Origin: a virus
Direction: 5' to 3' (one strand)
Virus record (IMG/VR): IMGVR_UViG_3300034407_001956
Location: 30,370 to 94,369 of that record
DNA length: 64,000 nucleotides
Shown: positions 36,443-53,010 of the stretch, in pieces
Numbering within the stretch: the first letter of the stretch is position 1
Layout: every line of letters starts with the position of its first letter
Translations under genes and position numbers: made by a program
The notes under the pieces: model-generated
Told to the model about the DNA's origin: nothing
Databases searched by the model: none
Seen by the model: the letters and a program-made list of their open reading frames with translations, nothing else

Positions 36443-36654
36443 TTAAGTTAAAAAAAATACTAACAGAAAAGTCTGAGAAAATTCAGGTGCGTGGTGTTGG
36501 TATTTATGATTTAAACTCACTAACAAATAAAGTTATTAAGATGGCTAAAGACTTAGAAAAGAATGCAAAGAAAGGTGATTGGCACAAATCATCTCGTAAT
36601 AGTATAAGAGCTTTTGCTGAAATGTGGGATGCTCTATCAGAATATGACAGATGA
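36439..36654 (+). CDS. protein with MIKLKKILTE leader
   Basis: ATG 36439 overlaps the upstream TGA. Confidence 0.65.
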   Translation: MIKLKKILTEKSEKIQVRGVGIYDLNSLTNKVIKMAKDLEKNAKKGDWHKSSRNSIRAFAEMWDALSEYDR

Positions 36655-37034
36655 TTAAATTAAAAAATTTACTCTTAGAAGATGTATCTCAATCCCAATT
36701 GAACCAAGTAGAAAAATACTTAGATAAGTTATGGGCTAAAGTTGGTATTGATGTAGAGTTTACTCGACACTTTATGGATAGAGTAAATGACGCAAGAAAT
36801 GGTAAACCAATATCACCAGCAGAACTAATTAAGATTTACAGAGAAATTTATAAGAAGTATGGTAAACCAATATCACAATTAAAAAGTGGTGTTGAGATAT
36901 TATTAAAAGATATGGAAACTGATATTAATGTACCAGTTGTATTACGATGGGATGGTAAAGAATTTGATATGATTGCCAAAACTGTAATGAGGAAGAAGAA
37001 TTTTAAATCAAGCACAAAGAAGTATTCAGTATGA
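36651..37034 (+). CDS. protein with MIKLKNLLLE leader, possible RelE/BECR-like fold
   Basis: VEFTRHFMDRV and C-terminal AKTVMRK; the fold is a guess. Confidence 0.6.
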   Translation: MIKLKNLLLEDVSQSQLNQVEKYLDKLWAKVGIDVEFTRHFMDRVNDARNGKPISPAELIKIYREIYKKYGKPISQLKSGVEILLKDMETDINVPVVLRWDGKEFDMIAKTVMRKKNFKSSTKKYSV

Positions 37035-37648
37035 TTAAATTAAAAGATTTATTAGAACTAAATGAGATGACTTATAATAAAGGTCCGAATGAAAAACATC
37101 AGAGTAGGATTAATTATCCTGTAACTTTGTTTAATGAAATCACAATGGAGAAAGTTCCTTTTCCTGAAAATAACAGTAAGGAAACTTTAGCGGAATTAAA
37201 ATATTTATCAAAAGTAAAATTAGATAAAAAATTTGTAAAAGTACACGATGATGTAGAAAAAGTGTTTAGTAAAAAACATAAAGAATTAGGATTAGAGTTT
37301 AATAAAGAAGAAGCTAAAGATTTACTTAAACAATCTGCTAAGTATATTATGGAACTAAAATATCAATATCAGAGACCAAGACCATATCAGATAGCTGAGT
37401 TTTATGGTATTGATTTAAATGGTGCTGAGTTAAGTAGTATGAAAACACCATCCTATCCAAGTGGACATGCGGTACAAGGTTATTTAATGGGTAAGATTTA
37501 TTCTGAAAGACATCCTAAGTATACAAGACACTTTACTGATTTAGGTGAAGATGTTGCTGAATCAAGAATAGTTGGTAAAGCACACTATCCATCTGATAAA
37601 GAGTTTGGTAGAAAATTAGCAGAAAAACTATTTGATAATTTAACATAG
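37031..37648 (+). CDS. PAP2/vanadium-haloperoxidase-family phosphatase with MIKLKDLLE leader
   Basis: K-X6-RP (KYQYQRPRP), PSYPSGH, SR-X5-H-X2-SD. Confidence 0.85.
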   Translation: MIKLKDLLELNEMTYNKGPNEKHQSRINYPVTLFNEITMEKVPFPENNSKETLAELKYLSKVKLDKKFVKVHDDVEKVFSKKHKELGLEFNKEEAKDLLKQSAKYIMELKYQYQRPRPYQIAEFYGIDLNGAELSSMKTPSYPSGHAVQGYLMGKIYSERHPKYTRHFTDLGEDVAESRIVGKAHYPSDKEFGRKLAEKLFDNLT

Positions 37649-38236: not shown

Positions 38237-39067
38237 ATGTCTGATAAGAAGATAAGAACTGTTACACAAGTTAAATCAAATCAACCATGCGAAAATAAAA
38301 GACAAGCCCTCTCTCAAATCAAAAGAATTGATTGGACTGCTTTAGAGTTTAGAACACCAAATCAAAAAACATTCTATCGAACTATTGGTAGAAACGATGT
38401 CACATTTTCAGTAGGACCTGCTGGGTGTGGTAAAACATTTTTAGCTACACATTATGCACTAAAGAATTTAGCTAAAGGTAAATATGATAAAATGATAATC
38501 ACAAAACCATTAGTTGAGGTGGATGGTGAGAAGATGGGATATTTGCCAGGAGATATAGATGAAAAGACTGCTCCGTATATGATGTCTATATATTACAATA
38601 TGGAACAGATAATTGGAAAGGAAAGATTAGAAGTATTAAAAAGAGCCGGAGTCGTACAAGTTATACCTTTAGCTTATATGAGAGGACTAACTCTAACGGA
38701 TAGTGTAGTTGTATTAGATGAGGCACAGAATGCCACACCATCACAGATAAAAACTTTCGTAACACGCATAGGACAAGGAAGTAAGTATATCATAAATGGT
38801 GATTTGATGCAATCTGATTTAAGAAAAGCAAATGGATTAGATGATGCTATAAAAAGATTCACTGGAATTAGAAGAGTGGGATTTAGTCAATTTGATTTAT
38901 CAGATGTGGTTAGACATCCTATCGTAGCTGAACTATTAGAACGCTATCAAGATGAATATGAGTTAGGTACATTGTCAGCTGAAGAAACTTTATCTATGTG
39001 GATAGAAAAGCAAGAGTATGATGAACCAATTACAACTAACAGATATTTTTATAAAATACGCAATTAA
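38237..39067 (+). CDS. phoH: PhoH-family ATPase
   Basis: GPAGCGKT, GYLPGD, YMRG, LDEAQN, TRIG, GDLMQSD, VVRHP. Confidence 0.95.
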   Translation: MSDKKIRTVTQVKSNQPCENKRQALSQIKRIDWTALEFRTPNQKTFYRTIGRNDVTFSVGPAGCGKTFLATHYALKNLAKGKYDKMIITKPLVEVDGEKMGYLPGDIDEKTAPYMMSIYYNMEQIIGKERLEVLKRAGVVQVIPLAYMRGLTLTDSVVVLDEAQNATPSQIKTFVTRIGQGSKYIINGDLMQSDLRKANGLDDAIKRFTGIRRVGFSQFDLSDVVRHPIVAELLERYQDEYELGTLSAEETLSMWIEKQEYDEPITTNRYFYKIRN

Positions 39068-39081
39068 CTATATATATTAGT

Positions 39082-39306
39082 ATGAAAGTTACATATGCTA
39101 AAAGACTGCCACCTGGTGATAGGTGGCAGATTGGAAACGAAGTATTCGATACATTAACTGAATGTCTTAATCAGATATTCTTACGAGAAAGCGCAACTTA
39201 CTTTGAAGTGGATGCGGGTGTTGGTGAGATATACATTGATGATGGTCAGGAGGCGCCTAAAGCACCACCTAAGATGTGGGATTTATATGGTGAAAAAAGT
39301 GAGTAA
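39082..39306 (+). CDS. hypothetical protein
   Basis: ORF with AKRLPPGDRW. Confidence 0.55.
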   Translation: MKVTYAKRLPPGDRWQIGNEVFDTLTECLNQIFLRESATYFEVDAGVGEIYIDDGQEAPKAPPKMWDLYGEKSE

Positions 39307-39307
39307 T

Positions 39308-39544
39308 ATGAAATCGGATGCTGTTTACAATCAATGGGATAATATGGTATATGTTAGATCTAATGGAGATACTATTCACATAATCTGCAATAAAGAAGAA
39401 CAGATGGATGCGGTAAATGAAAGGTTCTATGAAAGTGGTAATGAATTAATTGGCTACGAAGAATGGGATGAGGGAGAGGATAAGAAATGGATTATGACTT
39501 GGAAAATCCCAAAGGAATACGACAAACTATTGGAGTATAATTAA
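39308..39544 (+). CDS. hypothetical protein
   Basis: ATG 39308 preferred as start. Confidence 0.55.
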   Translation: MKSDAVYNQWDNMVYVRSNGDTIHIICNKEEQMDAVNERFYESGNELIGYEEWDEGEDKKWIMTWKIPKEYDKLLEYN

Positions 39545-39592
39545 TATTAGTTGATATTTATTGCTGTATTAGTATATTAGTAGGAGATTATT

Positions 39593-39886
39593 ATGAAAAA
39601 TCCTTTAGCAACATTTTATAGTTGGCAAGTAAGTAGTGGAGCATTAGATGGTTGGACATCATATCATCTGGCCGCTGGTTTGTTTATTGCTAAAATAGCT
39701 CAATGGTTAGGTAGTTCTGATTTTTGGGCAGTAATGTGGGTAGTTATTATCGGTGTAGCTTGGGAAATATTTGAATATTTCGTAGAGGGTACTGAAGAAA
39801 CTTACGGAACTAAACAGAAGTGGGCTTGGAATACAGGTACAGATTTATTTGTTGAGATAGCCGCTGCTTGGTGGATGGTATTATAG
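39593..39886 (+). CDS. membrane protein (H...WE..E...D pattern, DUF2238/VanZ-like)
   Basis: WTSYH, VAWEIFEY, NTGTDL. Confidence 0.55.
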   Translation: MKNPLATFYSWQVSSGALDGWTSYHLAAGLFIAKIAQWLGSSDFWAVMWVVIIGVAWEIFEYFVEGTEETYGTKQKWAWNTGTDLFVEIAAAWWMVL

Positions 39887-39895
39887 GAGAATACA

Positions 39896-41182
39896 ATGTT
39901 AAAGAAAATTATAATAGGTTTGTTATTAACCTCATCTTTGTTTGGAGAAACCGAACTTTGGAAATTTTTTAAATATTCAACTGCTTATGCTAGCTTTAGT
40001 TTGAATGCTCCAAGATACCAGGATGATAAGTTTGCTATTGTAGGTGGATTATCTACTGGTGATTTAGAGGTAGAAAGAACTGAAGGTGAGTTAAAACCTG
40101 ATTTTCAAAAATCATTTGGTTTGAGAAAAGTTGCTAGGTTTAAGTATGAACCAAAGCGTGGAGTAAAGTCAGCTGGTAAGGGTGGAACTTGGTATGATGG
40201 TTCAGAACATAATCCTAGTGAAAGCGCCACATTTGGTCCTGTGTCAGCTTGGGAATATCTAATCAAATGGTCAGAGGGTAGACAATGGGGTAATGAATAT
40301 CTTAATCAAGAGTATTGGGTACGATATACTGGCGATTGGTTGATGGCTAAAGTTGGTTGGACAGAATTAGGATTGGAAGATATTAATTATGGTCAAGGTG
40401 ATTTAAGATTAAAGTGGTCACCGGAAATATCAAATAGTCAAATTCATATAAGCGTTGGATTGAAACACAGACAACATCCTGTGTATGGATTTGATGCTAT
40501 GATATTAGACACTACTTGGTACAGAGGACAATGGTGGGCATTTGCAGAAGATGCTTTTAATGTCGATGATAATGAATGGCGCGATCCCGCACACTTTGAT
40601 GAAGATGGAAATTGGATAGAAACTGAACTATTAGAATATAGAGATGGTGAATGGGTTCCTGTTGAAGGACCAGGTCCGTTTTGGAATGGTGATGCTGGAG
40701 CTAGAGGATATGATTGGTTGTGGAGAGATGAGAATGGTAAAATCTTTGCATACACAGATAGAGAGTATTTTCTATATCATTTTCCAGGTATGTTAGAAGA
40801 ATACATCGATGCTAAGAAACGTAATATTGGATTTCAAAGAGAAACATCTTTGGTGTTTGGATTAGATTGGTATTACTATGCTGAAAATTGGTGGGTACAC
40901 GGTTGGGGTAATTACTTACCTTTCCATTATGGTCACGATAAATATTCTTATCATAATGCTAATGCTTACAAAGATCATTTAGACGCTAATAAAGATCCAG
41001 AAGATTTTATGTATATGGCGCCAATGTGGATGGGTTGGAATGATTATGATTTTGGTGGAATATTCGGAGTAAAGATTAAAGATAATCTTGGCGTATTTGC
41101 TGAAGGTAAATATTTATTCTATTGGGAAAGGCCAGCTTATGATATTAAGTTAGGTGTTAATTATCAATTTGTAGGATGGTAA
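39896..41182 (+). CDS. putative outer-membrane beta-barrel protein
   Basis: Signal peptide, aromatic-rich alternating strands, C-terminal YDIKLGVNYQF. Confidence 0.65.
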   Translation: MLKKIIIGLLLTSSLFGETELWKFFKYSTAYASFSLNAPRYQDDKFAIVGGLSTGDLEVERTEGELKPDFQKSFGLRKVARFKYEPKRGVKSAGKGGTWYDGSEHNPSESATFGPVSAWEYLIKWSEGRQWGNEYLNQEYWVRYTGDWLMAKVGWTELGLEDINYGQGDLRLKWSPEISNSQIHISVGLKHRQHPVYGFDAMILDTTWYRGQWWAFAEDAFNVDDNEWRDPAHFDEDGNWIETELLEYRDGEWVPVEGPGPFWNGDAGARGYDWLWRDENGKIFAYTDREYFLYHFPGMLEEYIDAKKRNIGFQRETSLVFGLDWYYYAENWWVHGWGNYLPFHYGHDKYSYHNANAYKDHLDANKDPEDFMYMAPMWMGWNDYDFGGIFGVKIKDNLGVFAEGKYLFYWERPAYDIKLGVNYQFVGW

Positions 41183-41183
41183 G

Positions 41184-41744
41184 ATGGAGATGGTAATGAA
41201 AAAATTATTTTTAATATTAGTTTTATTGCTCACATTTAGTTGTGAAGATTCTCGAATAGAAGAAGAGCCACAAGAAAATATTCAAATGTGGGTTAATGGT
41301 GACATAATACCTGTGTATGATTACTATGAAAGCATAACTACATATGGAATAAAAACTATTACAGATGGTGGTAATATTAAAAAAGTATTCGTAATCCATT
41401 TCCAAAAAGGTTTAGGCCGTATAAGTCCTGAGAAAGAACATTATGCATTAATCTTTTATGATATTGATGCGGATGATGATAATGACTTAATAGATTTAGG
41501 TGTTTATATAAATCCAGATTCAACTTCTTCAAAGGGTATTACATTAGAAATTACAGGTTTATCTGATTATACTACAAATGCACAAGGTGTTATAAATGTA
41601 AATAATAAAAATATAATTAGTGGTGTAGCTGAAGGCACTTTTTGGAATCCATATAGAGAAGAATTTCAAAATGGATTAATTGTATTTGATAATTTAGAAA
41701 TTGGAACAGATCCAGAAAATACATTTTACTCGGAGTATTATTAA
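41184..41744 (+). CDS. putative lipoprotein
   Basis: MKKLFLILVLLLTFSC lipobox. Confidence 0.7.
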   Translation: MEMVMKKLFLILVLLLTFSCEDSRIEEEPQENIQMWVNGDIIPVYDYYESITTYGIKTITDGGNIKKVFVIHFQKGLGRISPEKEHYALIFYDIDADDDNDLIDLGVYINPDSTSSKGITLEITGLSDYTTNAQGVINVNNKNIISGVAEGTFWNPYREEFQNGLIVFDNLEIGTDPENTFYSEYY

Positions 41745-42343
41745 TGAATGGTGATATTAAAATAGGAAAGTTACTTTGTGAAGAAGATATAATCACAAAG
41801 AGACAATTGAACCAAGCCTTACAATTACAGGTAAAGGGAGACAAACGTACTCTCGGTGAGATACTTGTGGACAAAGGTTTCTGTAGCTTAGATGACATAA
41901 CTGATATTTTAATGAAAACATCAGATGACCATAACCATATAGAAAAACAAGAAGAAATTTCGGAAAAGATAGAACCAACGAAAAAAGAACCAATCGAAAT
42001 AAGTGAAGATAAAGTATTGGATACTAAATTCACACTATCAGTACAAACAATGATAGGTGCTGGAACAGGTTTAGCGTCATTAATTGGAATGTGGTATACA
42101 CTACAAGGTGAAATTGAAGAAGCTAAACAATTACCATCTTTAGAAAGTTTGTATAAGCAAGAGTATCCATCAAGACCAGAAGGGTATAACTGGCCTCGTT
42201 CTTTTGAACAATACAAAGATAATGTTGGTACTCTTCAAGATGATATGGATGAAGCCTTTGGAATAGTTGAAGAATTGGAGGAGACAATAAAAGAATTACA
42301 GAAAGACATTAAAGACCTTGAAAGAAGAAAGAGGGATAAATAG
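41744..42343 (+). CDS. MshEN (c-di-GMP-binding) domain, TM and coiled-coil protein
   Basis: KIGKLLCEEDIITKRQLNQALQLQ...TLGEILVDKG matches tandem RLGxxLxxxG..LxxxLxxQ motifs. Confidence 0.75.
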   Translation: MNGDIKIGKLLCEEDIITKRQLNQALQLQVKGDKRTLGEILVDKGFCSLDDITDILMKTSDDHNHIEKQEEISEKIEPTKKEPIEISEDKVLDTKFTLSVQTMIGAGTGLASLIGMWYTLQGEIEEAKQLPSLESLYKQEYPSRPEGYNWPRSFEQYKDNVGTLQDDMDEAFGIVEELEETIKELQKDIKDLERRKRDK

Positions 42344-42353
42344 GAGTTTGTTT

Positions 42354-42728
42354 ATGAGATATTTAATTAGTTTGATATTTTTTTTGTCTGCATTAACCGC
42401 TCAAGTTACAGACAAAAATTTTAAAGAGAAGATAGGGAAAGGATTTTCGGTAGTAGTATTCACTTCCAACTATCAAGAAAAAGAATTGGATGAATCGGTT
42501 CTAAAAGGAGTTGGTGGATTTGATGATGCCAAAATAATTACAGTCAATTCTTCAGATGTTAAAAAGGTTATTAAAAAATTAAGAATTAGAAATTATCCAT
42601 CTATTGCTTTATTCCACAATGGAAGTAAAGAAGAAGTTTGGAAAGCCGATATGGATGGTGATTGTGGGTGTTCATCATCTGATATTAAAAAGGCTATAGA
42701 AGATGTCAATTCAGAAGATGTATTTTAG
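42354..42728 (+). CDS. exported thioredoxin-fold protein lacking CxxC
   Basis: Signal peptide, VTDKNFKE, IRNYPSI (cis-Pro loop). Confidence 0.65.
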   Translation: MRYLISLIFFLSALTAQVTDKNFKEKIGKGFSVVVFTSNYQEKELDESVLKGVGGFDDAKIITVNSSDVKKVIKKLRIRNYPSIALFHNGSKEEVWKADMDGDCGCSSSDIKKAIEDVNSEDVF

Positions 42729-42734
42729 GAATGC

Positions 42735-43385
42735 ATGAATATAGCAACTTTAGCTGGTCACTTAGCATTTGGTCTGATTGCCTTTTCTTTTCTTGTCAAG
42801 GACATTTTATGGTTACGGATAATATCTACACTAGCTAGTGTATTCTCTGTATTTTATAATTATGTAATACCAATAGAACCAATGTGGATTCCAATTTTTT
42901 GGAATATTGTATTTGCATTAGTCAATATATATCATATAGCAATTATAATTTATGAAAAGCGTCCTGTTGATATGTCGCCTAAACATAAAGAGCTATACGA
43001 AACAATGTTCAGAACTATGACACCAGTAGAGTTTTTAAAAATAACTAAGATAGCTGATTGGACACATTTTAAAAAAGATGAAGTAATAACACAAAAAGGA
43101 CATTCAGTACCTACTTTGAATTTAATATATAATGGAACAGTTGATGTTATGGTAGATAGTAAATCTGTAGCAGAATTAAAAGATGGACAATTTATAGGAG
43201 AGATGTCTTTTTTAACAGAGAAACCAGCAACTGCTACTTGTAAAGTAAAACACGATACAGAGTGTTTAGTTTGGGAACAGAAAACATTTAAGGAACTATT
43301 AAAAAGAAATCCATCATTATACTTTACGATTCAGTCTATTCTAAGTGCACAAGTATCTAGTGCTCTAGTTCACAGTAATAAATAA
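42735..43385 (+). CDS. membrane protein with cyclic-nucleotide-binding (Popeye-like) domain
   Basis: Three TMs (DILWLR) followed by GQFIGEMSFL...ATAT. Confidence 0.85.
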   Translation: MNIATLAGHLAFGLIAFSFLVKDILWLRIISTLASVFSVFYNYVIPIEPMWIPIFWNIVFALVNIYHIAIIIYEKRPVDMSPKHKELYETMFRTMTPVEFLKITKIADWTHFKKDEVITQKGHSVPTLNLIYNGTVDVMVDSKSVAELKDGQFIGEMSFLTEKPATATCKVKHDTECLVWEQKTFKELLKRNPSLYFTIQSILSAQVSSALVHSNK

Positions 43386-43459
43386 ATTTAATTTTTTACA
43401 CACTTTTAAACAATATATATTATATTTATTATGGACAACTAACCAACTAGGAAAATATT

Positions 43460-43801
43460 GTGGAATCTAAAGCAATAGAAAACCTTATCGGTGAGTATGG
43501 TTGGTTACTTCTATCGGGGATTTTAATCCTTTTATTTCAAAATACTATACAAGAAGCCGTAGACGGAATTATGATATTTTTGGGAAATGACTATAATGAA
43601 GATGATGTAGTTATGGTGGATGGTGCGCCCGGCCGTATCGTAAGAGTCGGTATGTGGAAAACTGTATTCTTTATATACCACGTAGTAAATGGTAAAATAG
43701 TAGGTGGCTCTAAGTTAGTAGTACAAAATTCTAAATTAAAAGATTTAAAAATAGAAAAACCATTACCTAATTTAGATCTGTCTAAATTTGATACAAAGTA
43801 A
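43460..43801 (+). CDS. MscS-like beta-domain small membrane protein
   Basis: TM followed by YNEDDVVMVDGAPGRIVRVGMWKT. Confidence 0.6.
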   Translation: MESKAIENLIGEYGWLLLSGILILLFQNTIQEAVDGIMIFLGNDYNEDDVVMVDGAPGRIVRVGMWKTVFFIYHVVNGKIVGGSKLVVQNSKLKDLKIEKPLPNLDLSKFDTK

Positions 43802-43852
43802 CATTTTGATACTAACATAATGATACACATTTGATATATTCTGTATAATAGA

Positions 43853-43879
43853 AAATCCTCACTTTTTGTGGGGTTTTTT
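43853..43879 (+). terminator. intrinsic terminator
   Basis: AAAATCCTCAC-TTTTT-GTGGGGTTTTTT. Confidence 0.6.
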
Positions 43880-43950
43880 GTGCGCTCCCTATCTTAAACA
43901 ATATTAACATTTAAAAATAATTTAATTTATTTTTTAAAAAATGGCTACTT

Positions 43951-43966
43951 TGGTACGCTTTTTGTA
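43951..43966 (+). promoter_or_regulatory. sigma54 (-24/-12) promoter upstream of pilin genes
   Basis: TGGTACG-CTTT-TTGTA versus consensus TGGCACG-N4-TTGCW; TGATAC repeats at 43789, 43807 and 43821 are possible activator sites. Confidence 0.55.
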
Positions 43967-44029
43967 GTATATAGGTGTAGATACAATCATTCGGAGAGTA
44001 TTAAACAAATAAGAAGAAGGAGAACTGAG

Positions 44030-44689
44030 ATGTTCGAGACAATCAAAAGATTTTTCAAAAAACTAAATAAGAAAATAAAGAGCAACACAGGTAATTCATT
44101 AGCTGAATTCGCTGTTACTACTGCTATGATGGCTACTTTAGCTACAACAGCCGCACCTAAGTTCGGTAATGTCGGAGCTGCTGCTAAAGAGAAGAAGTCT
44201 ATAGCTAACATTGATAAGATTTTAACAGTAGCTAACAACTACTACAACCAACAAGTATCTGAAGAAGGTAAGGGAAGATTTCCTGGACAATCAAAGTATG
44301 ACCAACCAGTAGGTGGGATTGACTTATCAGATGGAGCATATACTGATGAAACTCTTGAAGCATATATTGAAACTATACTTGAACAAAAGGATTCTTATGA
44401 ATCTGAATTGGGTGAGTTTGTTTATGTATTTTCAACATCAACTGATGATGACGATGCTTTACAAGGAGATTGGATGAACTTAGAAACATCAGTTGATTTT
44501 AATTCACAAGGAGCACTTGACTTTAAGAAAGACTTTGGTAATAAGGGTATTGAATCACCATTTCAGGATGGTTCATATGCTTACTTAGTAATACCAGGAA
44601 GTGGTAGTGGAACAGACGCTCAGGCACCTGCTCTTGTTGTAATCGACACAGAGAATCCAGGAAACTTATTTAAAACTTTAGTACCTTAA
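44030..44689 (+). CDS. type IV pilin-like protein
   Basis: Basic leader, G|NSLAEFAVTTAMMATLATTAAP (Gly-1, Glu+5, Pro+22). Confidence 0.75.
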   Translation: MFETIKRFFKKLNKKIKSNTGNSLAEFAVTTAMMATLATTAAPKFGNVGAAAKEKKSIANIDKILTVANNYYNQQVSEEGKGRFPGQSKYDQPVGGIDLSDGAYTDETLEAYIETILEQKDSYESELGEFVYVFSTSTDDDDALQGDWMNLETSVDFNSQGALDFKKDFGNKGIESPFQDGSYAYLVIPGSGSGTDAQAPALVVIDTENPGNLFKTLVP

Positions 44690-44722
44690 TTTAATAACAA
44701 AAAAAACCGGAAGGAAAAGAAA

Positions 44723-45166
44723 ATGAAGAACATACTCAAAAAAACAAATAAAGGTTTCACTCTGATTGAACTTGTAATGGTTACAATCATATTGGGAATC
44801 CTAGCGGCTGTAGCAATACCTCGCTATCAACAGACTGTAGATAATGCGGAAGCAACTGCAGAAAAGGCATTTGTCGATATGGTATGGGCTGGATGTGAAC
44901 AAGAAGCTTCTGAAAGACTAACTGAGTTTGGACTTGAGGCGTGGCCTTATAATCCACTAACAGTTATTGGTAGAAGTCGTAACATATCAGTTACATTGTT
45001 TGAAGGTGTACCCGATGAAGATAATGAATGGCAGTTTAGTGTGGATGCGGCTGGAACACCAGCAATATTCCATCACAGACGAAACGATGAAATCTATTAC
45101 TATAAGTACGATTCATTGTCATTTGAGTTAGACGAACTACCTACGCTTTATACAAACGAAGGATAA
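44723..45166 (+). CDS. type IV pilin
   Basis: KG|FTLIELVMVTIILGILAAVAIP prepilin motif. Confidence 0.92.
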   Translation: MKNILKKTNKGFTLIELVMVTIILGILAAVAIPRYQQTVDNAEATAEKAFVDMVWAGCEQEASERLTEFGLEAWPYNPLTVIGRSRNISVTLFEGVPDEDNEWQFSVDAAGTPAIFHHRRNDEIYYYKYDSLSFELDELPTLYTNEG

Positions 45167-45219
45167 TTAATGGGGGATTTGAATAATATTTCCCCTATTT
45201 ATTATAATAAAAGGGTATT

Positions 45220-45663
45220 ATGAAATTTAAACTCACAGACGATATTTTAGAACTTGTATTATTTGGATTAATAATGGTTACTTTGGGGTTCGTTTTTTTT
45301 AGAAGTGACGAACCCTCTAAAGTACAAAAAGAACCTACTATTGATGACTTTTATGAGTTTCCACTGCAAGCGTGGCAAACCACAGATTTGCAAGGCGGTG
45401 ATTGTATAAAGATTAGGTATATGGTTACTAAACCAAATACTCGTTTGATTATGAAAAGCGCTGATGGAGTAAGAGTACATATGCAACCAATATCTTTGAG
45501 CCCGAGAAAAGGTGAAGATAGAATAGAAACTTATGTGTGGAAACTATATCGTACAGAATGGACAGACAAAATATCTCCTGGCGAATATCTTATTATAGTA
45601 GGAACAGACCACGATAGGAGACCATCCAAAACAAACTTATCAGTAAAGGTAAATGTATTATGA
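45220..45663 (+). CDS. membrane-anchored Ig-like (FlgD-Ig-like) protein
   Basis: N-terminal TM; YVWK...ISPGEYLIIV. Confidence 0.5.
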   Translation: MKFKLTDDILELVLFGLIMVTLGFVFFRSDEPSKVQKEPTIDDFYEFPLQAWQTTDLQGGDCIKIRYMVTKPNTRLIMKSADGVRVHMQPISLSPRKGEDRIETYVWKLYRTEWTDKISPGEYLIIVGTDHDRRPSKTNLSVKVNVL

Positions 45664-46274
45664 AAAAAGTCTTGACTTTTGTATTAATGATGATAGTGAT
45701 AAGGGCGCAGGATGTCACTCGAGTATCTGAAATAAAATCATCTACATTCCTCGGTAAAGAATGTGATGATACTGAATACAGAAATTCCAATGGTTCACCC
45801 AATTGGAAAAATTATGGTGCTTGGTTAAGTGAATGTGACTCAATGCAGACAGTGCATTATGATGCTGTGTTTGCTTTAAGAGATAAAGAAAGACGAAAAG
45901 AAAAAGCAATACAAGATAGCCTTGAACAAATAGAAATAGCAAGTATGGATATAGACGCTGAATTAGATATGGATGCTATGTGGGATAATACGATATGGCA
46001 AGAGATAGAAGAAGTCGGTGAAACTATATATGGTGAAGTAGAACAAGTAACTTCAGTTGCTGGTGTTCGTGGTGCAGAAGCAGAAGATGAAGCATTGAAT
46101 CATCTATATTATAGAAGAAGTATGCGTGGTATTGCTATGATAGACTTACAGAAAGCATATGGTAAGTTAATGAATACAAAGGATAGGTTAGAGAAATCAA
46201 ATCCCAAACATCCAAAACTAAAGAAAATCAACGATTTACTTTCACAATTAAGAATTAAAATAAAAAACACTTAA
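45660..46274 (+). CDS. exported hypothetical protein
   Basis: Signal peptide; VAGVRGAEA motif. Confidence 0.55.
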   Translation: MKKVLTFVLMMIVIRAQDVTRVSEIKSSTFLGKECDDTEYRNSNGSPNWKNYGAWLSECDSMQTVHYDAVFALRDKERRKEKAIQDSLEQIEIASMDIDAELDMDAMWDNTIWQEIEEVGETIYGEVEQVTSVAGVRGAEAEDEALNHLYYRRSMRGIAMIDLQKAYGKLMNTKDRLEKSNPKHPKLKKINDLLSQLRIKIKNT

Positions 46275-46376
46275 ACTAATCAAATTCTAACAATATTTTC
46301 CTTAATATTTTTTATTTTCCAACTATATATTGTACGAGTTAGTACAATAAAGTTCTAGCGTTACAAGGAGATAAAA

Positions 46377-46700
46377 GTGAGATTACTGTGTTTAGTGTTA
46401 ATGGGCGTGTTGGCCGCCCAAGACTTACCAAATGGTGAGAGCCGTCAGCCCCAACCAATAATAGATTTTCAACTTAGTCAATACGATTTACCATATACTT
46501 CGAATAGTTCTGGTAATATAGTGGTAGAATTCGTAATAGATGAAAAGGGAAAAGTTATAGAACCTGAAATAACAGATACATTTAATGTTTCATTTAATGA
46601 TATTGTTTTAGATAAAGTAAGGCGAATGAAGTTTACACCACCAATGCAAAATGGAATACCAATTAAAGTTAAATATAAATTACCAATTAAATTTAAATAA
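46377..46700 (+). CDS. TonB C-terminal domain protein
   Basis: GNIVVEFVIDEKGKV...KFTPPMQNGIPIKVKYKLPIKF; start approximate. Confidence 0.85.
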   Translation: MRLLCLVLMGVLAAQDLPNGESRQPQPIIDFQLSQYDLPYTSNSSGNIVVEFVIDEKGKVIEPEITDTFNVSFNDIVLDKVRRMKFTPPMQNGIPIKVKYKLPIKFK

Positions 46701-46779
46701 ATTAAAAAAAAATTGTATTTGAGAATATATACATATATATATTAATGTATCAAATACGATACAAATGTTTTTTGACAAT

Positions 46780-47196
46780 TTGAAAATTTGAAAAGTGCAG
46801 AGAGTAATTAACTCTGTATGGGATTGGTCGAATAATGAGTAGATGATGAAGCTCATAAGACAATCTAATGTGAGTTGTGGTGACTTGGAACTCTGCTAAA
46901 TGTAGTAGAGGTGTAACGGTCCTCATAGACATATGACACATAATGTACTTTCAGAAACTAAACGTTGATTCGTTGACCTTTTTATGGGTAAGGGTAAAAC
47001 CGAAATCCCATCTTGTGGCTGAATAATTTAGTCTCAGAGAGATAAGGCAATATCACAGACATTGTAGTCGCTCTAACGTAGAATTAACCATCTATTAGGA
47101 GAACCAGTATAACTTCTGGGTGATAGGTAAAGGGTAATAAAAATCTGAGCTGAAAGTTGTAGGTATTCAATAATCCTACATCCCCCTAATTTTCAA
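46780..47196 (+). ncRNA. large structured ncRNA (GOLLD/ROOL-size class; family unassigned)
   Basis: Closing helix TTGAAAATT/AATTTTCAA; nested ACTTTCAG(46947)/CTGAAAGT(47150) and CTCAGA(47033)/TCTGAG(47144); more than 6 local hairpins; no + strand ORF. Confidence 0.7.
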
Positions 47197-47204
47197 TATT
47201 ATAT

Positions 47205-47272
47205 AAAAAGGGTTCGACCGATTTTTAGTTTCCACTTTCTTAAAACTTTAAAAACTACAGAACCCTTTTTTA
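47205..47272 (+). terminator. terminator-like inverted repeat
   Basis: AAAAAGGGTTC...GAACCCTTTTTT. Confidence 0.55.
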
Positions 47273-47286
47273 TTTAAAGAAATCCC

Positions 47287-47680
47287 TTGACTCGTATTGC
47301 AATTCTTTTGTATATTTAAGTATAACAAAAGGAGTTAATATGATGTATTCGGAGTGCTGTGGGGCGATAGTCTATGATGACTATGACTTATGTAGTGAAT
47401 GTCTTGAACATTGTGATGTTTGGGAAGATGATGATGACGAGGATGAGCAGATGGAGAAGTTACTTGAAATGAATCCAGAATTCGATCCAAAAAATAAATA
47501 AAGAAAAGTCTTGACTCGTATTGCAATTATTTTGTATCTTCTTGTATGATGAAAGAGACTTTAAGAACCATTTTGTTACTATTCGTTTTAATAACAGACA
47601 ATGCTGGTGCTACTAATCTTAAAAAAAATAAAAAAAACTTAAAAAAAGGCTTGACTCATATTGCATTTTGTTTGTATGAT
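47287..47680 (+). promoter_or_regulatory. three tandem phage early-type promoters
   Basis: TTGACTC(G/A)TATTGCA at 47287, 47511 and 47651, each with an 18-nt spacer to TATATT, TATCTT or TATGAT. Confidence 0.8.
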
Positions 47681-47703
47681 CAGGTATGAGAAAAAGGGAA
47701 AAT

Positions 47704-49803
47704 ATGAAGAAGATAAAAAACTTTAATCCAATGGCTCTCAGAGAGAAATACTCTGTGGGTTCTTCTAATAAAAAAAATAACTACTCTTCTTTTTGGTTGG
47801 ATAATGATTGGGATAATAACTCTTCAATCTTTGATGACGAAACAGATAAAAAGAAAGGTGTTGATTTAGTTGCTTTGGCTTCTTATAGAAGAGCCATTAG
47901 TAACTTTGTTTCTATTGTGACTGGTGAATCAGACATCAAAGTGACTTTCAAATCTAGTGGAGATAGTTATACTGATGGTAAGGCTGTCACTATCTCATCT
48001 AAATTAGATGACAAATTATTTGATTCTACTGTTGGTTTGGCTCTTCACGAAGGTAGTCACATTAAACTATCAGACTTTGATTTTCTAAAACAACTCTCCA
48101 ATAACATTCCACAGGAATATATTAAGAGGGCTGAGGTTTTTGGTTGGGATGCTTATGATGTAAAAGAAAAACTTAAAAACTTATTGAACTATGTAGAAGA
48201 TAGAAGAATTGATTATTTTGTCTTTTCAAATTCACCTGGTTATAAAGGTTATTATCATTCAATGTATGATAAGTATTTTCATTCAAAGATTATTGATAAG
48301 GCTCTTCAAACTGATGAATATACAGATAAAGATTGGGATTCATACATTTTCAGAATTATCAATCTCACTAATAAGAATTCTAACTTAGATGCTTTACCAG
48401 GTCTCAGAGAAATCAAAAATCTTATCTTCAGAAATGTAAAAAGTTTAGAATCTACTTCAGATGCTTTTGGTGTCGCACTTAAAGTATTTCACATTCTATT
48501 AGATAATTTAGATGTACCGGCTTCTAATCAATCAGAAAATGGTGATGGTGAAGAGTCTGAAGATGGTGAAAATGTTGAAGGTGGTGAGGGTTCTGGTGGT
48601 GCTGGTGGTGATGAAGGTTCTGAAACAATCTCAGATGAAGAGTTTAATGAGTCTTTAGAAAATGGTGTTGGTTCAGGTGATGGAGATGATTCTAAATCTA
48701 AGGTTGAACTTTCAGATGCTCAGAAAAAACAACTTCAAAATGCCATCAAAAAGCAAGATAAGTTTATGAATGGAGATATTCAGAAAAAGCAATTGACTAA
48801 AAAAGATAAAGCTTCGATGGATTCAGTTGAGTCTGCCGGAATGAGTTATGTTGATGTTGCTGGTGCTACTAATCGTTGGACTGGTAAAAAAGTTCCTACT
48901 AAAGTTTTGATGGTAAAGAAATTTACTAAAGCTCTGGCTGAGTCTGATACAATTGGTATGATTGAAAATCCTAATTACAAATGGTCTAGAGAAGAGTACA
49001 AAGAAGCTATCGCTAAAGGTTTAGTGATGGGTACTATTTTAGGTAAGAAGCTTCAGGTTCGTGGAGAGTCTCGTGAGACTAAGTGGTCACGTTTGGATAG
49101 TGGTCGTATTGATAAGAGATTGGTTGCTGAGCTTGGGTTTGGTAATGAGAGAGTTTTCAAAACTACTTTTACTGAGTCTTACTCAGATGCTTTTCTTCAC
49201 ATTTCTATTGATGCTAGTGGTTCGATGGGTGGAGATAAGTGGACAAATACTCAGACTTCTGTTGCCGCCATCGCTAAGGCTTGTTCAATGATTAACAATG
49301 TTGATTTGGTTATTTCTTACAGAAGTACTCAAAGTGTCGGTAATGGTTACAGAAATAGAAATGAATCAAATCCATTGATGATGATTGCTTATGATTCCAG
49401 AGTTGATAAGATTTCAAAGATTAAGAATCTGTTTCCTCTACTTCGCCCATCAGGCACTACTCCTGAAGGATTGTGTTTTGAGGCTGTAATGAAAGAAATT
49501 GAAGTTGGTTCTAATGATAAAGATTCTTACTTCCTTAATTTTTCAGATGGAATGCCAATGTTTAGTAATAATGACATTGATTATTACCATGACACCGCTA
49601 TCGACCACACTTCTAAAATGATTAAAGAGATTCGTAGTCGTGGTGTTAAGGTTCTAAGTTACTTCATCGGAGATGGTTATGACAGAGAAAATTCTACTTC
49701 AACTTTCAAAAAAATGTATGGTAATGGTGCTGCTTTTGTCGATGTGACTTCGGTATTGGCTGTGGCTAAGACAATGAACAAATTGTTTTTGGAGAAAAAC
49801 TAA
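47704..49803 (+). CDS. VWA-domain protein with N-terminal HExxH domain (CobT-like)
   Basis: ALHEGSH, NYVEDRRID, acidic Gly-rich linker, IDASGSMG MIDAS, GTTPE, SDGMP. Confidence 0.85.
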   Translation: MKKIKNFNPMALREKYSVGSSNKKNNYSSFWLDNDWDNNSSIFDDETDKKKGVDLVALASYRRAISNFVSIVTGESDIKVTFKSSGDSYTDGKAVTISSKLDDKLFDSTVGLALHEGSHIKLSDFDFLKQLSNNIPQEYIKRAEVFGWDAYDVKEKLKNLLNYVEDRRIDYFVFSNSPGYKGYYHSMYDKYFHSKIIDKALQTDEYTDKDWDSYIFRIINLTNKNSNLDALPGLREIKNLIFRNVKSLESTSDAFGVALKVFHILLDNLDVPASNQSENGDGEESEDGENVEGGEGSGGAGGDEGSETISDEEFNESLENGVGSGDGDDSKSKVELSDAQKKQLQNAIKKQDKFMNGDIQKKQLTKKDKASMDSVESAGMSYVDVAGATNRWTGKKVPTKVLMVKKFTKALAESDTIGMIENPNYKWSREEYKEAIAKGLVMGTILGKKLQVRGESRETKWSRLDSGRIDKRLVAELGFGNERVFKTTFTESYSDAFLHISIDASGSMGGDKWTNTQTSVAAIAKACSMINNVDLVISYRSTQSVGNGYRNRNESNPLMMIAYDSRVDKISKIKNLFPLLRPSGTTPEGLCFEAVMKEIEVGSNDKDSYFLNFSDGMPMFSNNDIDYYHDTAIDHTSKMIKEIRSRGVKVLSYFIGDGYDRENSTSTFKKMYGNGAAFVDVTSVLAVAKTMNKLFLEKN

Positions 49804-49924
49804 TGGAAAGTAAAATCAAAAACCTAATAAGAGAGCATGTAAAAAATATGCGAAGAAGTTATTGGTGGTTAGGCGAAAACGAAGATGTGGTTAAAAAAAT
49901 AATGAAAATAATTAAAGAAAAGGC

Positions 49925-49954
49925 TTGACTCGTATTGCATTTTATGTGTATTAT
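49925..49954 (+). promoter_or_regulatory. phage early-type promoter
   Basis: TTGACTCGTATTGCA...TATTAT. Confidence 0.75.
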
Positions 49955-50013
49955 TAGGTGTAATGAGAGAGACAAAAATTAACAATTCAAATCAAATAAA
50001 AGGAAAAAAAGAT

Positions 50014-52486: not shown

Positions 52487-52696
52487 AAAAAGAACGTACA
52501 AGATACAAAGTTCTAAATACAGTAACTACTGTAAATGGAACTTTGTATGCTAAAGAGGCTGTTTTCGTTGAGAATGTAGAAGCGAATGGTGATTGGAGAG
52601 TTAAAGATACTATGGGCAGAATTTGGTTTGTTAAGAAAGAGAATTTAAAATAATATTTAGTTCTTCATATATTTATTGTTATATTGGAGAATTTTT

Positions 52697-53008
52697 ATGG
52701 AAAACAAAAAAGCCTTAGAAGCTTGTAATTGTAATTGCAAAGAAAAAAAAGTTGAAAAGAAACCAGACTTACCAACAGGTCCTGATTTATATTTGGGCGG
52801 AGATGGTTTGCCTGATTGGATGCAATTTACCATTACTGCTGGTATGTTTGCTATATTGTACTGGGTATTATATTTACTATTTCATCCTACCTTAGAATTG
52901 GATGAAACTCATAGAGATTTGTTGAACATTATATTAGGTACATTTATTGCTACTTTTGGTAAGACAATAGACTTTTGGTTTAGACACTCTAAGAAGAAGG
53001 AGAAATAA
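52697..53008 (+). CDS. putative holin (2 TM)
   Basis: Two TMs and a basic C-terminus, immediately upstream of the endolysin. Confidence 0.55.
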   Translation: MENKKALEACNCNCKEKKVEKKPDLPTGPDLYLGGDGLPDWMQFTITAGMFAILYWVLYLLFHPTLELDETHRDLLNIILGTFIATFGKTIDFWFRHSKKKEK

Positions 53009-53010
53009 TA

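What the first reader, a model, noticed from the sequence alone, without database searches (positions are those of the whole stretch)
39593..46700. Host-envelope remodelling island: pilins, MshEN, cNMP sensor, beta-barrel, TonB-C, MscS-like
Seen: about 12 consecutive exported or membrane proteins, including two type IV pilins, an MshEN-TM-coiled-coil protein without an ATPase, a cNMP-binding membrane protein, a beta-barrel and a stand-alone TonB C-domain. No pilus assembly ATPase, secretin or prepilin peptidase is in the window. Known: pili and TonB-dependent receptors are common phage receptors, and MshEN binds c-di-GMP. Inference: the phage feeds its own pilins into the host machine and jams or retunes receptors under second-messenger control, for superinfection exclusion or altered adhesion of infected cells.
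Basis: partly seen in the sequence, partly recalled or inferred. Interest (0 to 1): 0.75.

Follow-up and report, generated by a model that had tools for sequence, protein, structure and literature searches.

The report
Phage envelope genes with host-derived pilins
An abundant uncultured ocean phage carries 12 adjacent genes for proteins sent to its host's cell envelope, including pilus subunits copied from its probable host (SAR406 bacteria) and a conserved outer-to-inner-membrane gene set of unknown function. This is a new example of phages re-fitting the host surface, not a new principle.

Summary
Window 39593-46700 encodes 12 consecutive + strand proteins, each with a signal peptide, lipobox, prepilin leader or membrane segment. 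Confirmed are a canonical type IV pilin, a divergent one (G|NSLAEF), an MshE-type c-di-GMP domain fused to a membrane segment and coiled coil, a Popeye-like cNMP-binding membrane protein, an outer-membrane beta-barrel and a secreted TonB C-domain. The 'MscS-like' label is sub-threshold.

It is not a host fragment. The genes recur, shuffled, in more than 70 independent viral contigs of a T4-like marine lineage.

It is several units, not one island:
- B-C-D-E is a tightly packed (translationally coupled) four-gene set. The barrel gave no match in 151 genomes of the host phylum.
- H-I-J-K is a pilin operon behind a terminator and a sigma-54-type promoter. H and I match the pilus locus of Marinimicrobia (SAR406), which has the peptidase, ATPase, sigma-54 activator and platform genes that the phage records searched lack.
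- A, F, G and L are movable single genes.

Host assembly of phage pilins is well grounded. Second-messenger control of the pilins, and receptor jamming, are not shown.

This scan already found the pilin operon and the barrel/coiled-coil/thioredoxin trio on other DNA. Phage pilins have published precedent (P-FimU).

The parts
39593..39886 (+). A: 97-aa small membrane protein, a mobile single gene
   Evidence: Hydrophobic segments. Found in 21 related loci at varying positions. A weak, sub-threshold heliorhodopsin-fragment similarity is probably chance.
39896..41182 (+). B: 428-aa outer-membrane beta-barrel (about 12-14 strands) with a large conserved insertion at residues ~196-312
   Evidence: Signal peptide and aromatic C-terminus. 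AlphaFold pLDDT 74.1. VIA-align: Tsx Z 15.2, EstA barrel 14.8, KdgM 14.7, NanC 13.7. All Foldseek top hits are outer-membrane barrels. Found in 89 viral loci at 64-84% identity. No Pfam family for it or for its distant relatives. No match in 151 genomes of the host phylum.
41184..41744 (+). C: 186-aa lipoprotein with a conserved acidic stretch (CEDxR-EE) after the lipid-anchored Cys
   Evidence: Lipobox LTFS|C. The motif is conserved in most of the 34 unique homologues. Weak Atlas leads to Bacteroidota lipoprotein families of unknown function, DUF6252 and DUF5025.
41744..42343 (+). D: 199-aa protein with a cytoplasmic MshE-type c-di-GMP-binding domain, a membrane segment and a periplasmic coiled coil
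   Evidence: NF053729 at 9.2e-13, above the cut-off. Family consensus keeps both motif halves, the segment and the C-terminal coiled coil. Its start overlaps the stop of C. No match in 5 host genomes. Not a close copy of the host ATPase N-domain.
42354..42728 (+). E: secreted thioredoxin-fold protein without a CxxC active site (an alternative TTG start lies at 42318)
   Evidence: Pfam Thioredoxin 1e-4, just below the cut-off. No CxxC where the thioredoxin active site would align. Always follows D (60 D-E adjacencies).
42735..43385 (+). F: 216-aa membrane protein with three segments and a Popeye-like cyclic-nucleotide-binding domain; a mobile single gene
   Evidence: PF00027 4e-15 and PF04831 2.3e-14. 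2038 metagenomic relatives; the identical protein lies on a 191.8-kb contig. Directly upstream of the endolysin in 4 related loci. In the host phylum only the cNMP domain is common.
43460..43801 (+). G: 113-aa single-pass membrane protein; 'MscS-like' not confirmed
   Evidence: MS_channel_2nd E 0.02, below the cut-off. 77-86% identical in 19 loci, often just upstream of B.
43857..43873 (+). Terminator-like hairpin followed by a T-run, separating G from the pilin operon
   Evidence: The only + strand terminator-like site in 39000-47800. Sequence read.
43951..43965 (+). Sigma-54-type promoter TGGTAC-N5-TTGT, 79 nt upstream of H
   Evidence: TGG-N8-TTGY, read as TGGYAY-N5-TTGY at the sites found, lies 30-82 nt upstream of 14 of 17 phage H genes and 57 of 64 host H genes. 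Background is 0.07 per 250 nt. Only 3 matches in the whole window.
44030..44689 (+). H: 219-aa divergent type IV pilin (leader ...TG|NSLAEF)
   Evidence: Gly-1, Glu+5 and Pro+22 are invariant. In-register match to PilA-N and MshA. 38-49% identical to Marinimicrobia pilins that sit beside the pilus machinery genes. Nested among host sequences in the tree. The first 55 mature residues are up to 78% identical to the host's.
44723..45166 (+). I: 147-aa canonical type IV pilin or pseudopilin (KG|FTLIE)
   Evidence: N_methyl and TIGR02532 above their cut-offs. 38-48% identical to the I-type pilins that follow H in host loci. Family alignment.
45220..45663 (+). J: 147-aa N-terminally anchored protein with an invariant Glu at the start of the anchor; phage-specific
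   Evidence: Alignment A5. The pilin-like register is not significant (hhalign probability 5%). Not found beside the host pilin genes; seen only on L107, a 2.7-kb MAG-binned contig that looks phage-derived.
45660..46274 (+). K: 204-aa secreted protein with a conserved two-Cys motif (CDDTEYR...WLSECDS) and a helical C-terminus; phage-specific
   Evidence: Signal peptide. Conserved N-terminal motif across 10 homologues. No Pfam or PHROG hit. Overlaps the end of J.
46377..46700 (+). L: 107-aa secreted stand-alone TonB C-terminal domain
   Evidence: TonB_C 1.1e-11 and TIGR01352 3.4e-8. Has a signal peptide and lacks TonB's membrane anchor and Pro-rich spacer. Present in 3 of 5 larger relatives at 41-51% identity. 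25-39% identical to host TonB_C proteins.

Best explanation
The region is a real, conserved but mosaic block of accessory genes. With it, a T4-like marine phage places its own proteins in every layer of its host's envelope. The host is most probably Marinimicrobia (SAR406). The block has at least three independent parts.

(1) H-I-J-K pilin operon. H and I descend from the host's own pilus-subunit genes and keep a sigma-54-type promoter. The host's RpoN and its pilus-locus activator probably transcribe the operon. The host prepilin peptidase cleaves the products at Gly-1, and the host MshE-type ATPase and platform assemble them. Infected cells would then carry pili whose surface or tip is phage-specified. 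The most likely pay-off is blocking adsorption of competing pilus-binding phages, as shown for P-FimU.

(2) B-C-D-E. This tightly packed (translationally coupled), phage-specific set supplies an outer-membrane barrel, a lipoprotein, an inner-membrane protein and a redox-dead periplasmic thioredoxin-fold protein. The inner-membrane protein joins a cytoplasmic c-di-GMP-binding domain to a periplasmic coiled coil. Together they most likely form a trans-envelope complex whose state depends on host c-di-GMP.

(3) Movable single genes A, F, G and L. L is a secreted TonB C-domain. It cannot transduce energy, so it most likely competes for the TonB boxes of outer-membrane receptors.

Shown here: gene content, targeting signals, domain identities, conservation, host origin of H and I, promoter type, and absence of assembly genes in the records searched. 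Inferred: processing, assembly, exclusion, complex formation and TonB competition.
For: Real and viral:
- Uniform GC and strand.
- B in 89 loci and the other genes in 2-63 loci of independent IMG/VR contigs.
- Relatives encode a T4-type Gp23 capsid protein.
- RecA, DnaB, class II RNR and PolB lie upstream on the same record.

Envelope targeting of all 12 proteins.

Pilin module:
- 33 genome loci hold H relatives. Fourteen of the records name Marinimicrobia or Neomarinimicrobiota, single-cell genomes among them; most others are unnamed uncultured bacteria (one on a 583-kb contig), and two carry other names.
- Host locus order is A24 peptidase, T2SSE ATPase with MshEN, sigma-54 activator, T2SSF, H-type pilins, then I-type pilins.
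- Phage H sequences are nested inside host diversity, with at least 4 phage/host label changes on the tree.
- The sigma-54-type motif is shared by 14/17 phage and 57/64 host H genes.
- The N-terminal assembly helix is 75-78% identical to the host's, the head domain about 40%.
- H and I are the fastest-diverging genes of the block: 41-94% identity against 64-84% for B.
- No ATPase, peptidase or secretin in the phage records searched.
- Precedent: phage FimU and PilA copies enter the host pilus and block tip-binding phages (PMC12952977).

B-C-D-E:
- B-D and D-E are each adjacent in 60 loci, with overlapping or abutting reading frames.
- Barrel fold; MshE-type motif.
- No match in the host phylum with these queries.
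- A simpler trio (membrane coiled-coil protein, thioredoxin-like protein, barrel) sits in a distant viral contig.

L: TonB_C behind only a signal peptide.
Against: - No expression, processing or assembly data exist. The host is uncultured.
- The record is only about 51% complete, so assembly genes could lie in the missing half. The relatives searched are 59-71% complete.
- H has Asn or Gln at +1 and a weakly hydrophobic Ala/Thr-rich helix. That is also true of the host copies, so it does not argue against assembly.
- J and K have no recognisable relatives, so the operon's output is not fully understood.
- The MshEN motifs of D are partly degenerate (Lys for Arg, Asp for Gly in the first half), so c-di-GMP binding is not assured.
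- Nothing ties B-C-D-E to the pilins beyond proximity, and the order is shuffled among relatives.
- The same phage also encodes a full TonB-dependent receptor, which fits a cooperative as well as an inhibitory role for L.
Confidence: 0.5

Rival explanations
1. B-C-D-E, and perhaps F, form a lysis-stage device, not a remodelling device. An inner-membrane coiled-coil protein (D), an outer-membrane barrel (B) and a lipoprotein (C) would breach the outer membrane after the endolysin acts. That would be a functional analogue of two-component spanins in phages of FCB-group hosts, with the c-di-GMP domain as a timing input.
For: - D's core has spanin-like topology: a membrane segment followed by a periplasmic coiled coil. 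Its distant homologue in L149 has the segment at the N-terminus and no cytoplasmic domain.
- C is a lipoprotein directly upstream of D.
- o110 (52676-53008) is a two-segment membrane ORF that abuts the GH108 endolysin here. It sits next to E or B in 8 related loci, and F sits directly upstream of the endolysin in 4.
- No lipoprotein plus coiled-coil membrane pair lies beside the endolysin in 52.1-54.3 kb.
- An earlier follow-up on other DNA reached the same idea (e1-3862023).
Against: - In this window the set lies 10 kb from the endolysin.
- Known spanins need no beta-barrel, no thioredoxin-fold partner and no cytoplasmic sensor.
- C (186 aa) is far larger than known o-spanins.
- o110 has no holin family hit.
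- Adjacency in a region this shuffled is weak evidence.
Confidence: 0.25
2. The phage pilins preserve or boost pilus function instead of blocking rivals. Candidate functions are attachment to particles, aggregation and DNA or nutrient capture. Infected cells would stay in favourable micro-environments or gather nucleotides, like other auxiliary genes that keep a host function running during infection.
For: - The operon keeps the host promoter type and a highly host-like assembly helix, as expected for a working replacement.
- P-FimU proteins also support normal pilus function (PMC12952977).
- The phage carries many metabolic helper genes: class II RNR, PhoH, peptide deformylase, TonB-dependent receptor.
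Against: - The head domains are only about 40% identical to host copies and diverge fast among phages. That fits an arms race better than function maintenance.
- The two readings are not exclusive.
Confidence: 0.15
3. L works with the phage's own 909-aa TonB-dependent receptor, and perhaps barrel B, as a nutrient-uptake kit (for example cobalamin or iron for the B12-dependent RNR). It would not act as a receptor blocker.
For: - The receptor (CarboxypepD_reg plus Plug) lies next to nrdJ and is 81-85% conserved in 4 of 5 relatives. L is present in 3 of those 4.
- B's best structural match is the nucleoside channel Tsx.
Against: - L has no membrane anchor or spacer, so it cannot couple to ExbB/ExbD.
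- From my own recollection of E. coli work, not checked here: soluble periplasmic TonB C-domains inhibit transport.
- L and the receptor are about 70 kb apart.
- A shared barrel fold says nothing about the substrate.
Confidence: 0.08
4. The block is a misassembled or recently captured host fragment with no role for the phage.
For: H and I have clear host homologues.
Against: - The same genes recur in more than 70 independent viral contigs from many samples.
- Composition and strand match the flanks.
- B and D gave no match in host-phylum genomes: 151 searched with the B profile, 5 with D.
- B is conserved at 64-84% identity, close to PhoH (about 85% in most relatives).
Confidence: 0.01

Closest known systems
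P-FimU and P-PilA: pilus subunits encoded by Pseudomonas aeruginosa F10-like prophages, Xylella prophages and some virulent phages (Sztanko et al., Cell Rep 2026, PMC12952977)
   Same: A phage carries homologues of the host's type IV pilus subunits without any assembly machinery. The subunits diverge fast. The expected route is incorporation by the host machine.
   Different: Here there is a four-gene operon with two pilin types and two phage-only exported proteins. It keeps a sigma-54-type promoter, sits in a T4-like virulent-type phage of an uncultured phylum, and lies among other envelope genes. No function has been tested.
MshE / MSHA-type pilus ATPases and NfrB, which carry the MshEN c-di-GMP-binding domain
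   Same: D carries the paired MshEN motif (NCBIfam NF053729, above the cut-off). The probable host's pilus ATPase has an MshEN domain too.
   Different: In D the domain is fused to a membrane segment and a periplasmic coiled coil, with no ATPase or glycosyltransferase. It is not a close copy of the host ATPase's domain (about 28% identity over about 40 residues).
Two-component spanins (lambda Rz/Rz1)
   Same: An inner-membrane protein with a periplasmic coiled coil is encoded next to an outer-membrane lipoprotein. Relatives show links to the endolysin neighbourhood.
   Different: There are extra partners: a beta-barrel, a thioredoxin-fold protein and a cytoplasmic sensor domain. The lipoprotein is large. 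The set is not adjacent to the endolysin in this genome.
Phage-encoded outer-membrane proteins and receptor blockers (lambda Lom and Bor, T5 Llp, cyanophage Phage_OMP PF24653)
   Same: Phage-made proteins are inserted into the host outer membrane during infection or lysogeny.
   Different: B has no sequence relation to these families. It is larger (about 12-14 strands plus a 115-residue conserved insertion) and comes with inner-membrane and periplasmic partners.
Synthase-dependent exopolysaccharide exporters (AlgE/AlgK/Alg44, PelB/PelC/PelD)
   Same: The combination is the same: outer-membrane barrel, lipoprotein, and an inner-membrane c-di-GMP receptor with a periplasmic extension. BcsC and AlgE appear among the Foldseek hits. 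The phage has a large glycan gene region upstream.
   Different: No synthase is adjacent. The structural matches are generic barrel matches (TM-score 0.2-0.3). B looks like a 12-14-strand barrel, not the 16-18 strands of those exporters.

Membership tests
Type IV pilin (class III signal peptide proteins): protein I | Short basic leader ending in Gly, Phe at +1, Glu at +5, about 20 hydrophobic residues; N_methyl / TIGR02532 match | tested here: met
   KG|FTLIELVMV...; PF07963 1.4e-7 and TIGR02532 1.9e-7, both above their cut-offs. Gly and Glu are invariant in 12 homologues.
Type IV pilin: protein H | Leader ending in Gly, Glu at +5, N-terminal assembly helix with Pro near +22 | tested here: met
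   G|(N/Q/A)SLAEFAV...AAPxF is invariant and aligns in register with PilA-N and MshA (E 1.4e-3 to 1.1e-2). No Pfam or NCBIfam hit.
Type IV pilin: proteins H and I | Cellular homologues lie in a pilus locus with peptidase, ATPase and platform genes | tested here: met
   Locus L108 (single-cell genome): A24 peptidase, T2SSE+MshEN, sigma-54 activator, T2SSF, then H- and I-type genes. L128 (583-kb contig): a T2SSE+MshEN ATPase confirmed upstream of its H/I arrays.
Type IV pilin: proteins H and I | Alpha-beta head-domain fold; cleavage and N-methylation by prepilin peptidase; incorporation into a filament | not testable with these tools
MshEN c-di-GMP-binding domain: protein D | Paired 24-residue motif RLGxx(L/V/I)(L/V/I)xxG(L/V/I)(L/V/I)xxxxLxxxLxxQ | tested here: met
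   NF053729 at 47.8 bits against a cut-off of 38. By eye the first half has Lys for Arg and Asp for Gly, and the second half lacks the final Gln. Pfam MshEN itself did not hit.
MshEN c-di-GMP-binding domain: protein D | Binds c-di-GMP | not testable with these tools
   Needs a binding assay.
Popeye / cNMP-binding membrane proteins: protein F | Three N-terminal membrane segments followed by a cyclic-nucleotide-binding fold | tested here: met
   PF04831 at 54.1 bits (cut-off 28.1) over residues 6-192; PF00027 at 56 bits; three hydrophobic segments.
Popeye / cNMP-binding membrane proteins: protein F | Intact phosphate-binding cassette (Gly-Glu ... Arg-Ser/Thr-Ala, or Popeye DSPE/FQVT) | tested here: inconclusive
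   By eye, Gly-Glu is present but the position of the cassette Arg reads Ala-Thr-Ala. The ligand cannot be named.
TonB energy transducer: protein L | TonB C-terminal domain | tested here: met
   PF03544 1.1e-11; TIGR01352 3.4e-8.
TonB energy transducer: protein L | N-terminal membrane anchor that contacts ExbB/ExbD, and a Pro-rich periplasm-spanning spacer | tested here: not met
   107 aa in all: a cleavable-looking signal peptide, about 25 residues, then the domain. L works like a free TonB C-domain. It is not a TonB.
Outer-membrane beta-barrel proteins: protein B | Signal peptide, closed antiparallel barrel, aromatic C-terminal residue | tested here: met
   pLDDT 74.1, about 14 long strands; Tsx Z 15.2, rmsd 3.5 over 203 residues; KdgM, NanC, autotransporter barrels.
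MscS mechanosensitive channels: protein G | Pore-lining helix, beta domain and C-terminal alpha-beta domain; Pfam MS_channel families | tested here: not met
   Only MS_channel_2nd, at E 0.02 and 15.4 bits, below the cut-off of 20.2. The protein has 113 aa and one membrane segment.
Two-component spanins: proteins C and D | i-spanin with an N-terminal membrane segment and periplasmic coiled coil; small outer-membrane lipoprotein partner; position in the lysis cassette | tested here: inconclusive
   D has the segment and coiled coil but also a 90-residue cytoplasmic domain. C is a 186-aa lipoprotein. The endolysin is 10 kb away here, though relatives show links through o110 and F.
Phage-supplied pilus subunits (P-FimU / P-PilA type) | Phage gene homologous to a host pilus subunit, with no assembly genes in the phage | tested here: met
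   Caveat: the phage records are 51-71% complete.
Phage-supplied pilus subunits (P-FimU / P-PilA type) | Incorporated into the pilus; blocks adsorption of pilus-binding phages | not testable with these tools
   Host uncultured; needs experiments.

The most novel reading that the evidence does not exclude
B-C-D-E is a previously unrecognised trans-envelope machine of phages that infect FCB-group bacteria. It would be a beta-barrel-based, c-di-GMP-sensing counterpart of spanins that breaches or gates the outer membrane. Lysis or envelope opening would then be tied to the host's surface-attachment signal, while the sigma-54 pilin operon re-surfaces the c-di-GMP-controlled pilus of the same cell.
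Probability: 0.15. Interest if true: 0.8.

Novelty: new variant of a known kind. Interest (0 to 1): 0.55.

Why it matters
SAR406 (Marinimicrobia) is abundant in the ocean and has no cultured members, and few of its viruses are known. A host link built on a copied pilus operon, promoter type included, gives a concrete handle on who infects it.

The block shows that a virulent-type T4-like phage invests about 7 kb in proteins for every envelope layer. It extends the recently shown principle of phage-supplied pilus subunits to ocean phages and to whole operons.

The B-C-D-E set is conserved about as strongly as the phage's core genes, yet it has no known family or function. It is a well-defined target for learning how phages of FCB-group hosts handle the outer membrane.

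Tried and rejected
- Cultured phages: nucleotide and protein searches found nothing for the island or for B. The neighbouring VWA protein hit only a huge uncultured phage, a Microcystis phage and a Bacteroides phage.
- First AlphaFold run of B on a shallow alignment gave pLDDT 49.5. It improved only after distant relatives were added.
- Pfam on 33 B-family members found no family.
- D as a copy of the host ATPase's MshEN domain: rejected, only motif-level similarity.
- J as a degenerate pilin: its invariant Glu aligns with pilin Glu+5, but hhalign gives 5% probability, and the profile search of solved-structure (PDB) sequences found no significant match.
- A terminal repeat, and so a complete genome, for relative G160: rejected, no nucleotide match between the contig ends. 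The second B hit there is a diverged paralogue fragment.
- A sigma-54-type promoter upstream of Hsp20, as noted for a relative: not present here.
- PF00593 (TonB-dependent receptor barrel) did not hit the 909-aa receptor, but its Plug and CarboxypepD_reg domains did.
- A literature search for the inhibitory effect of periplasmic TonB fragments did not surface the paper I recall. That point rests on memory.

Full report
**Context.** The window is bases 30370-94369 of a 94,369-base IMG/VR viral record that CheckV rates 51% complete.
- All sizeable genes are on the + strand, GC is 0.30-0.39 and the GC skew is uniform.
- Upstream on the same record lie RecA, a 5'-3' exonuclease, a DnaB-type helicase, a class II (B12) ribonucleotide reductase, a 909-aa receptor with CarboxypepD_reg and Plug domains, and a family B DNA polymerase.
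- Downstream of the finding lie a CobT-like VWA protein, a MoxR/CbbQ-type AAA ATPase, a staphylococcal-type nuclease, a GH108 endolysin, Hsp20, peptide deformylase and a DruA-like protein.
- Two larger relatives encode a T4-type Gp23 capsid protein (E about 1e-76), so the lineage is T4-like.
- No cultured phage matches the island.
- A protein identical to F lies on a 191.8-kb contig, which suggests a genome near 190 kb.

**The observation.** Twelve consecutive ORFs (A to L, 39593-46700) each carry an export or membrane signal.
- A crude hydropathy screen flags 18 of 141 genes in the record, 8 of them inside this 12-gene run. The run is far beyond chance.
- Family searches confirm a canonical prepilin (I), an MshE-type c-di-GMP motif (D), a Popeye-like cNMP domain behind three membrane segments (F) and a TonB C-domain behind only a signal peptide (L).
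- H has no family hit. Its 12-member alignment has an invariant G|xSLAEFAV...AAPxF N-terminus that aligns in register with Geobacter PilA-N and Vibrio MshA.
- B was modelled twice. With distant relatives added from the 1.84-billion-protein search, the model reached pLDDT 74.1.
- B's matches are all outer-membrane barrels: Tsx Z 15.2, EstA barrel 14.8, KdgM 14.7, NanC 13.7. Foldseek probability is 1.0 but TM-scores are low.
- The 'MscS-like' label for G rests on a sub-threshold hit and is not confirmed.

**Not a host fragment.** B recurs in 89 loci of independent viral contigs at 64-84% identity. D and E recur in 62-63 loci, C in 53, F in 49, H, I and K in 17-22, and L in 2 of the fetched loci plus 3 of 5 larger relatives.
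- The order is shuffled. B-(C)-D-E stays together, with 60 B-D and 60 D-E adjacencies.
- H-I-(J)-K stays together. A, F, G and L move about.

**The pilin operon and the host.** A terminator-like hairpin (43857-43873) follows G, and TGGTAC-N5-TTGT lies 79 nt before H.
- Scanning one genome per prokaryote species with the H profile gave 33 loci. Fourteen records name Marinimicrobia or Neomarinimicrobiota, single-cell genomes among them; most others are unnamed uncultured bacteria (one on a 583-kb contig), and two carry other names, Balneolaceae and Methanobacteriota.
- In those loci, H-type genes stand in tandem arrays of two to five, followed by I-type pilins.
- In L108 the array is preceded by an A24 prepilin peptidase, a T2SSE ATPase with an MshEN domain, a sigma-54-dependent activator and a T2SSF platform protein; in L128 the T2SSE+MshEN ATPase was confirmed.
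- A maximum-likelihood tree places the phage H sequences inside the host clade formed by the last copy of each array. At least four phage/host label changes are needed, and the window's own clade sits on a long branch.
- A sigma-54-type motif lies 30-82 nt upstream of 57 of 64 host H genes and 14 of 17 phage H genes, against a background of 0.07 per 250 nt. The phage version has T where the host usually has C.
- The first 55 mature residues of H are up to 78% identical to host copies; the rest is about 40% identical.
- Among phages, H and I diverge more than any other gene of the block.
- No T2SSE ATPase was found above the family cut-off, and no A24 peptidase or secretin at all, in this record or in the relatives searched (five for T2SSE, four for the others; 109-132 kb, 59-71% complete).
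- J and K have no relatives beside the host pilin genes. They appear only on L107, a 2.7-kb MAG-binned contig that looks phage-derived. J's resemblance to a pilin N-terminus is not significant.
- These results independently reproduce what earlier follow-ups of this scan reported on other DNA.

**B-C-D-E.** The four reading frames abut or overlap.
- The B profile found nothing in 151 genomes of the host phylum, and D found nothing in five. The H profile, used as a positive control, did find matches there.
- B has 271 relatives at E below 1e-3 in the protein library, none with a Pfam family.
- A distant viral contig (L149) carries a 98-aa membrane plus coiled-coil protein that aligns with D's C-terminal half, a 113-aa secreted thioredoxin-like protein and a 362-aa B relative, in that order. 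The trio is therefore older than the MshEN fusion.
- C keeps a lipobox followed by an acidic stretch in most homologues. From general knowledge, this resembles the surface-export signal of Bacteroidota lipoproteins.
- D's domain is not a close copy of the host ATPase's MshEN domain.

**Links to lysis.** Here the endolysin (53011-53487) is preceded by o110, a two-segment membrane ORF and holin candidate by position only.
- In relatives, o110 sits next to E or B in eight loci, and F sits directly upstream of the endolysin in four.
- This partly reproduces an earlier follow-up's idea that the trio belongs with the lysis genes. In such a shuffled region it remains circumstantial.

**L and the receptor.** L has no anchor or spacer, so it cannot be an energy transducer.
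- Host genomes hold TonB_C proteins at 25-39% identity, including a 142-aa one.
- The phage's own receptor is 81-85% conserved in four of five relatives.
- From memory (not verified here), soluble periplasmic TonB C-domains inhibit TonB-dependent transport in E. coli, which makes competition the simplest reading.

**Verdict.** The block is a set of independently conserved envelope modules, not one regulated island.
- The best-supported mechanism is that host machinery transcribes (sigma-54), processes and assembles phage pilins. By analogy with P-FimU (PMC12952977), exclusion of rival phages is the most likely benefit.
- The role of B-C-D-E is open between envelope conditioning and lysis.
- The pilin part is a new variant of a known kind, already seen by this scan on other DNA. 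The B-C-D-E set is the more original part, but its function is unknown.

Noticed in passing
L105:5769-8498 (same viral record, upstream of the window): A 909-aa TonB-dependent receptor (CarboxypepD_reg plus Plug, an architecture typical of FCB-group bacteria) lies between the B12-dependent RNR and PolB. It is 81-85% conserved in 4 of 5 larger relatives.
   Followed up: partly
window 52676-54086: Probable lysis cassette: o110 (two membrane segments, Cys-rich N-terminus, no family hit) abuts a GH108 endolysin with a peptidoglycan-binding domain, followed by Hsp20. No canonical spanin pair lies beside it.
   Followed up: partly
window 47686-51171: A CobT-like VWA protein (705 aa) and a MoxR/CbbQ-type AAA ATPase (402 aa) directly follow the island. 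They are 70-90% conserved in most relatives (two show 45%) and often follow K.
   Followed up: partly
window 46330-46347: Perfect inverted repeat TTGTAC-N6-GTACAA just downstream of a sigma-70-like site and 30 nt before L. Operator-like.
   Followed up: no
L128:10001-20618 and L133:10001-17100 (host genomes): Marinimicrobia pilus loci hold very long tandem arrays of pilin genes (more than 15 I-type copies in L128). Nearly every H-type copy has its own sigma-54-type promoter.
   Followed up: partly
L107 (2.7-kb contig in a MAG), L110 (contig of a MAG labelled Methanobacteriota): L107 carries H, I, I, I, J, K in phage order at 65% identity and is probably a phage contig binned into a bacterial MAG. 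L110 carries a Marinimicrobia-type pilin array and is probably misbinned.
   Followed up: no
G160:C1:120071-120403 (related viral record): A second, diverged B-like fragment at the far contig end, with no nucleotide similarity to the first copy. Some relatives therefore carry two B paralogues.
   Followed up: partly
window 47340-47501: A 53-aa very acidic ORF with five Cys in CxxC-like spacing (zinc-ribbon-like), standing alone between L and the VWA gene.
   Followed up: no
window 39593-39886: Protein A gives weak, sub-threshold matches to the middle helices of heliorhodopsin (Pfam E 0.0018, NCBIfam E 2e-4). Probably chance similarity of membrane helices.
   Followed up: no
window 37031-37648 and 36651-37034: A PAP2-family phosphatase-like protein and neighbouring ORFs sharing an MIKLK N-terminus lie just upstream of PhoH.
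   Followed up: no
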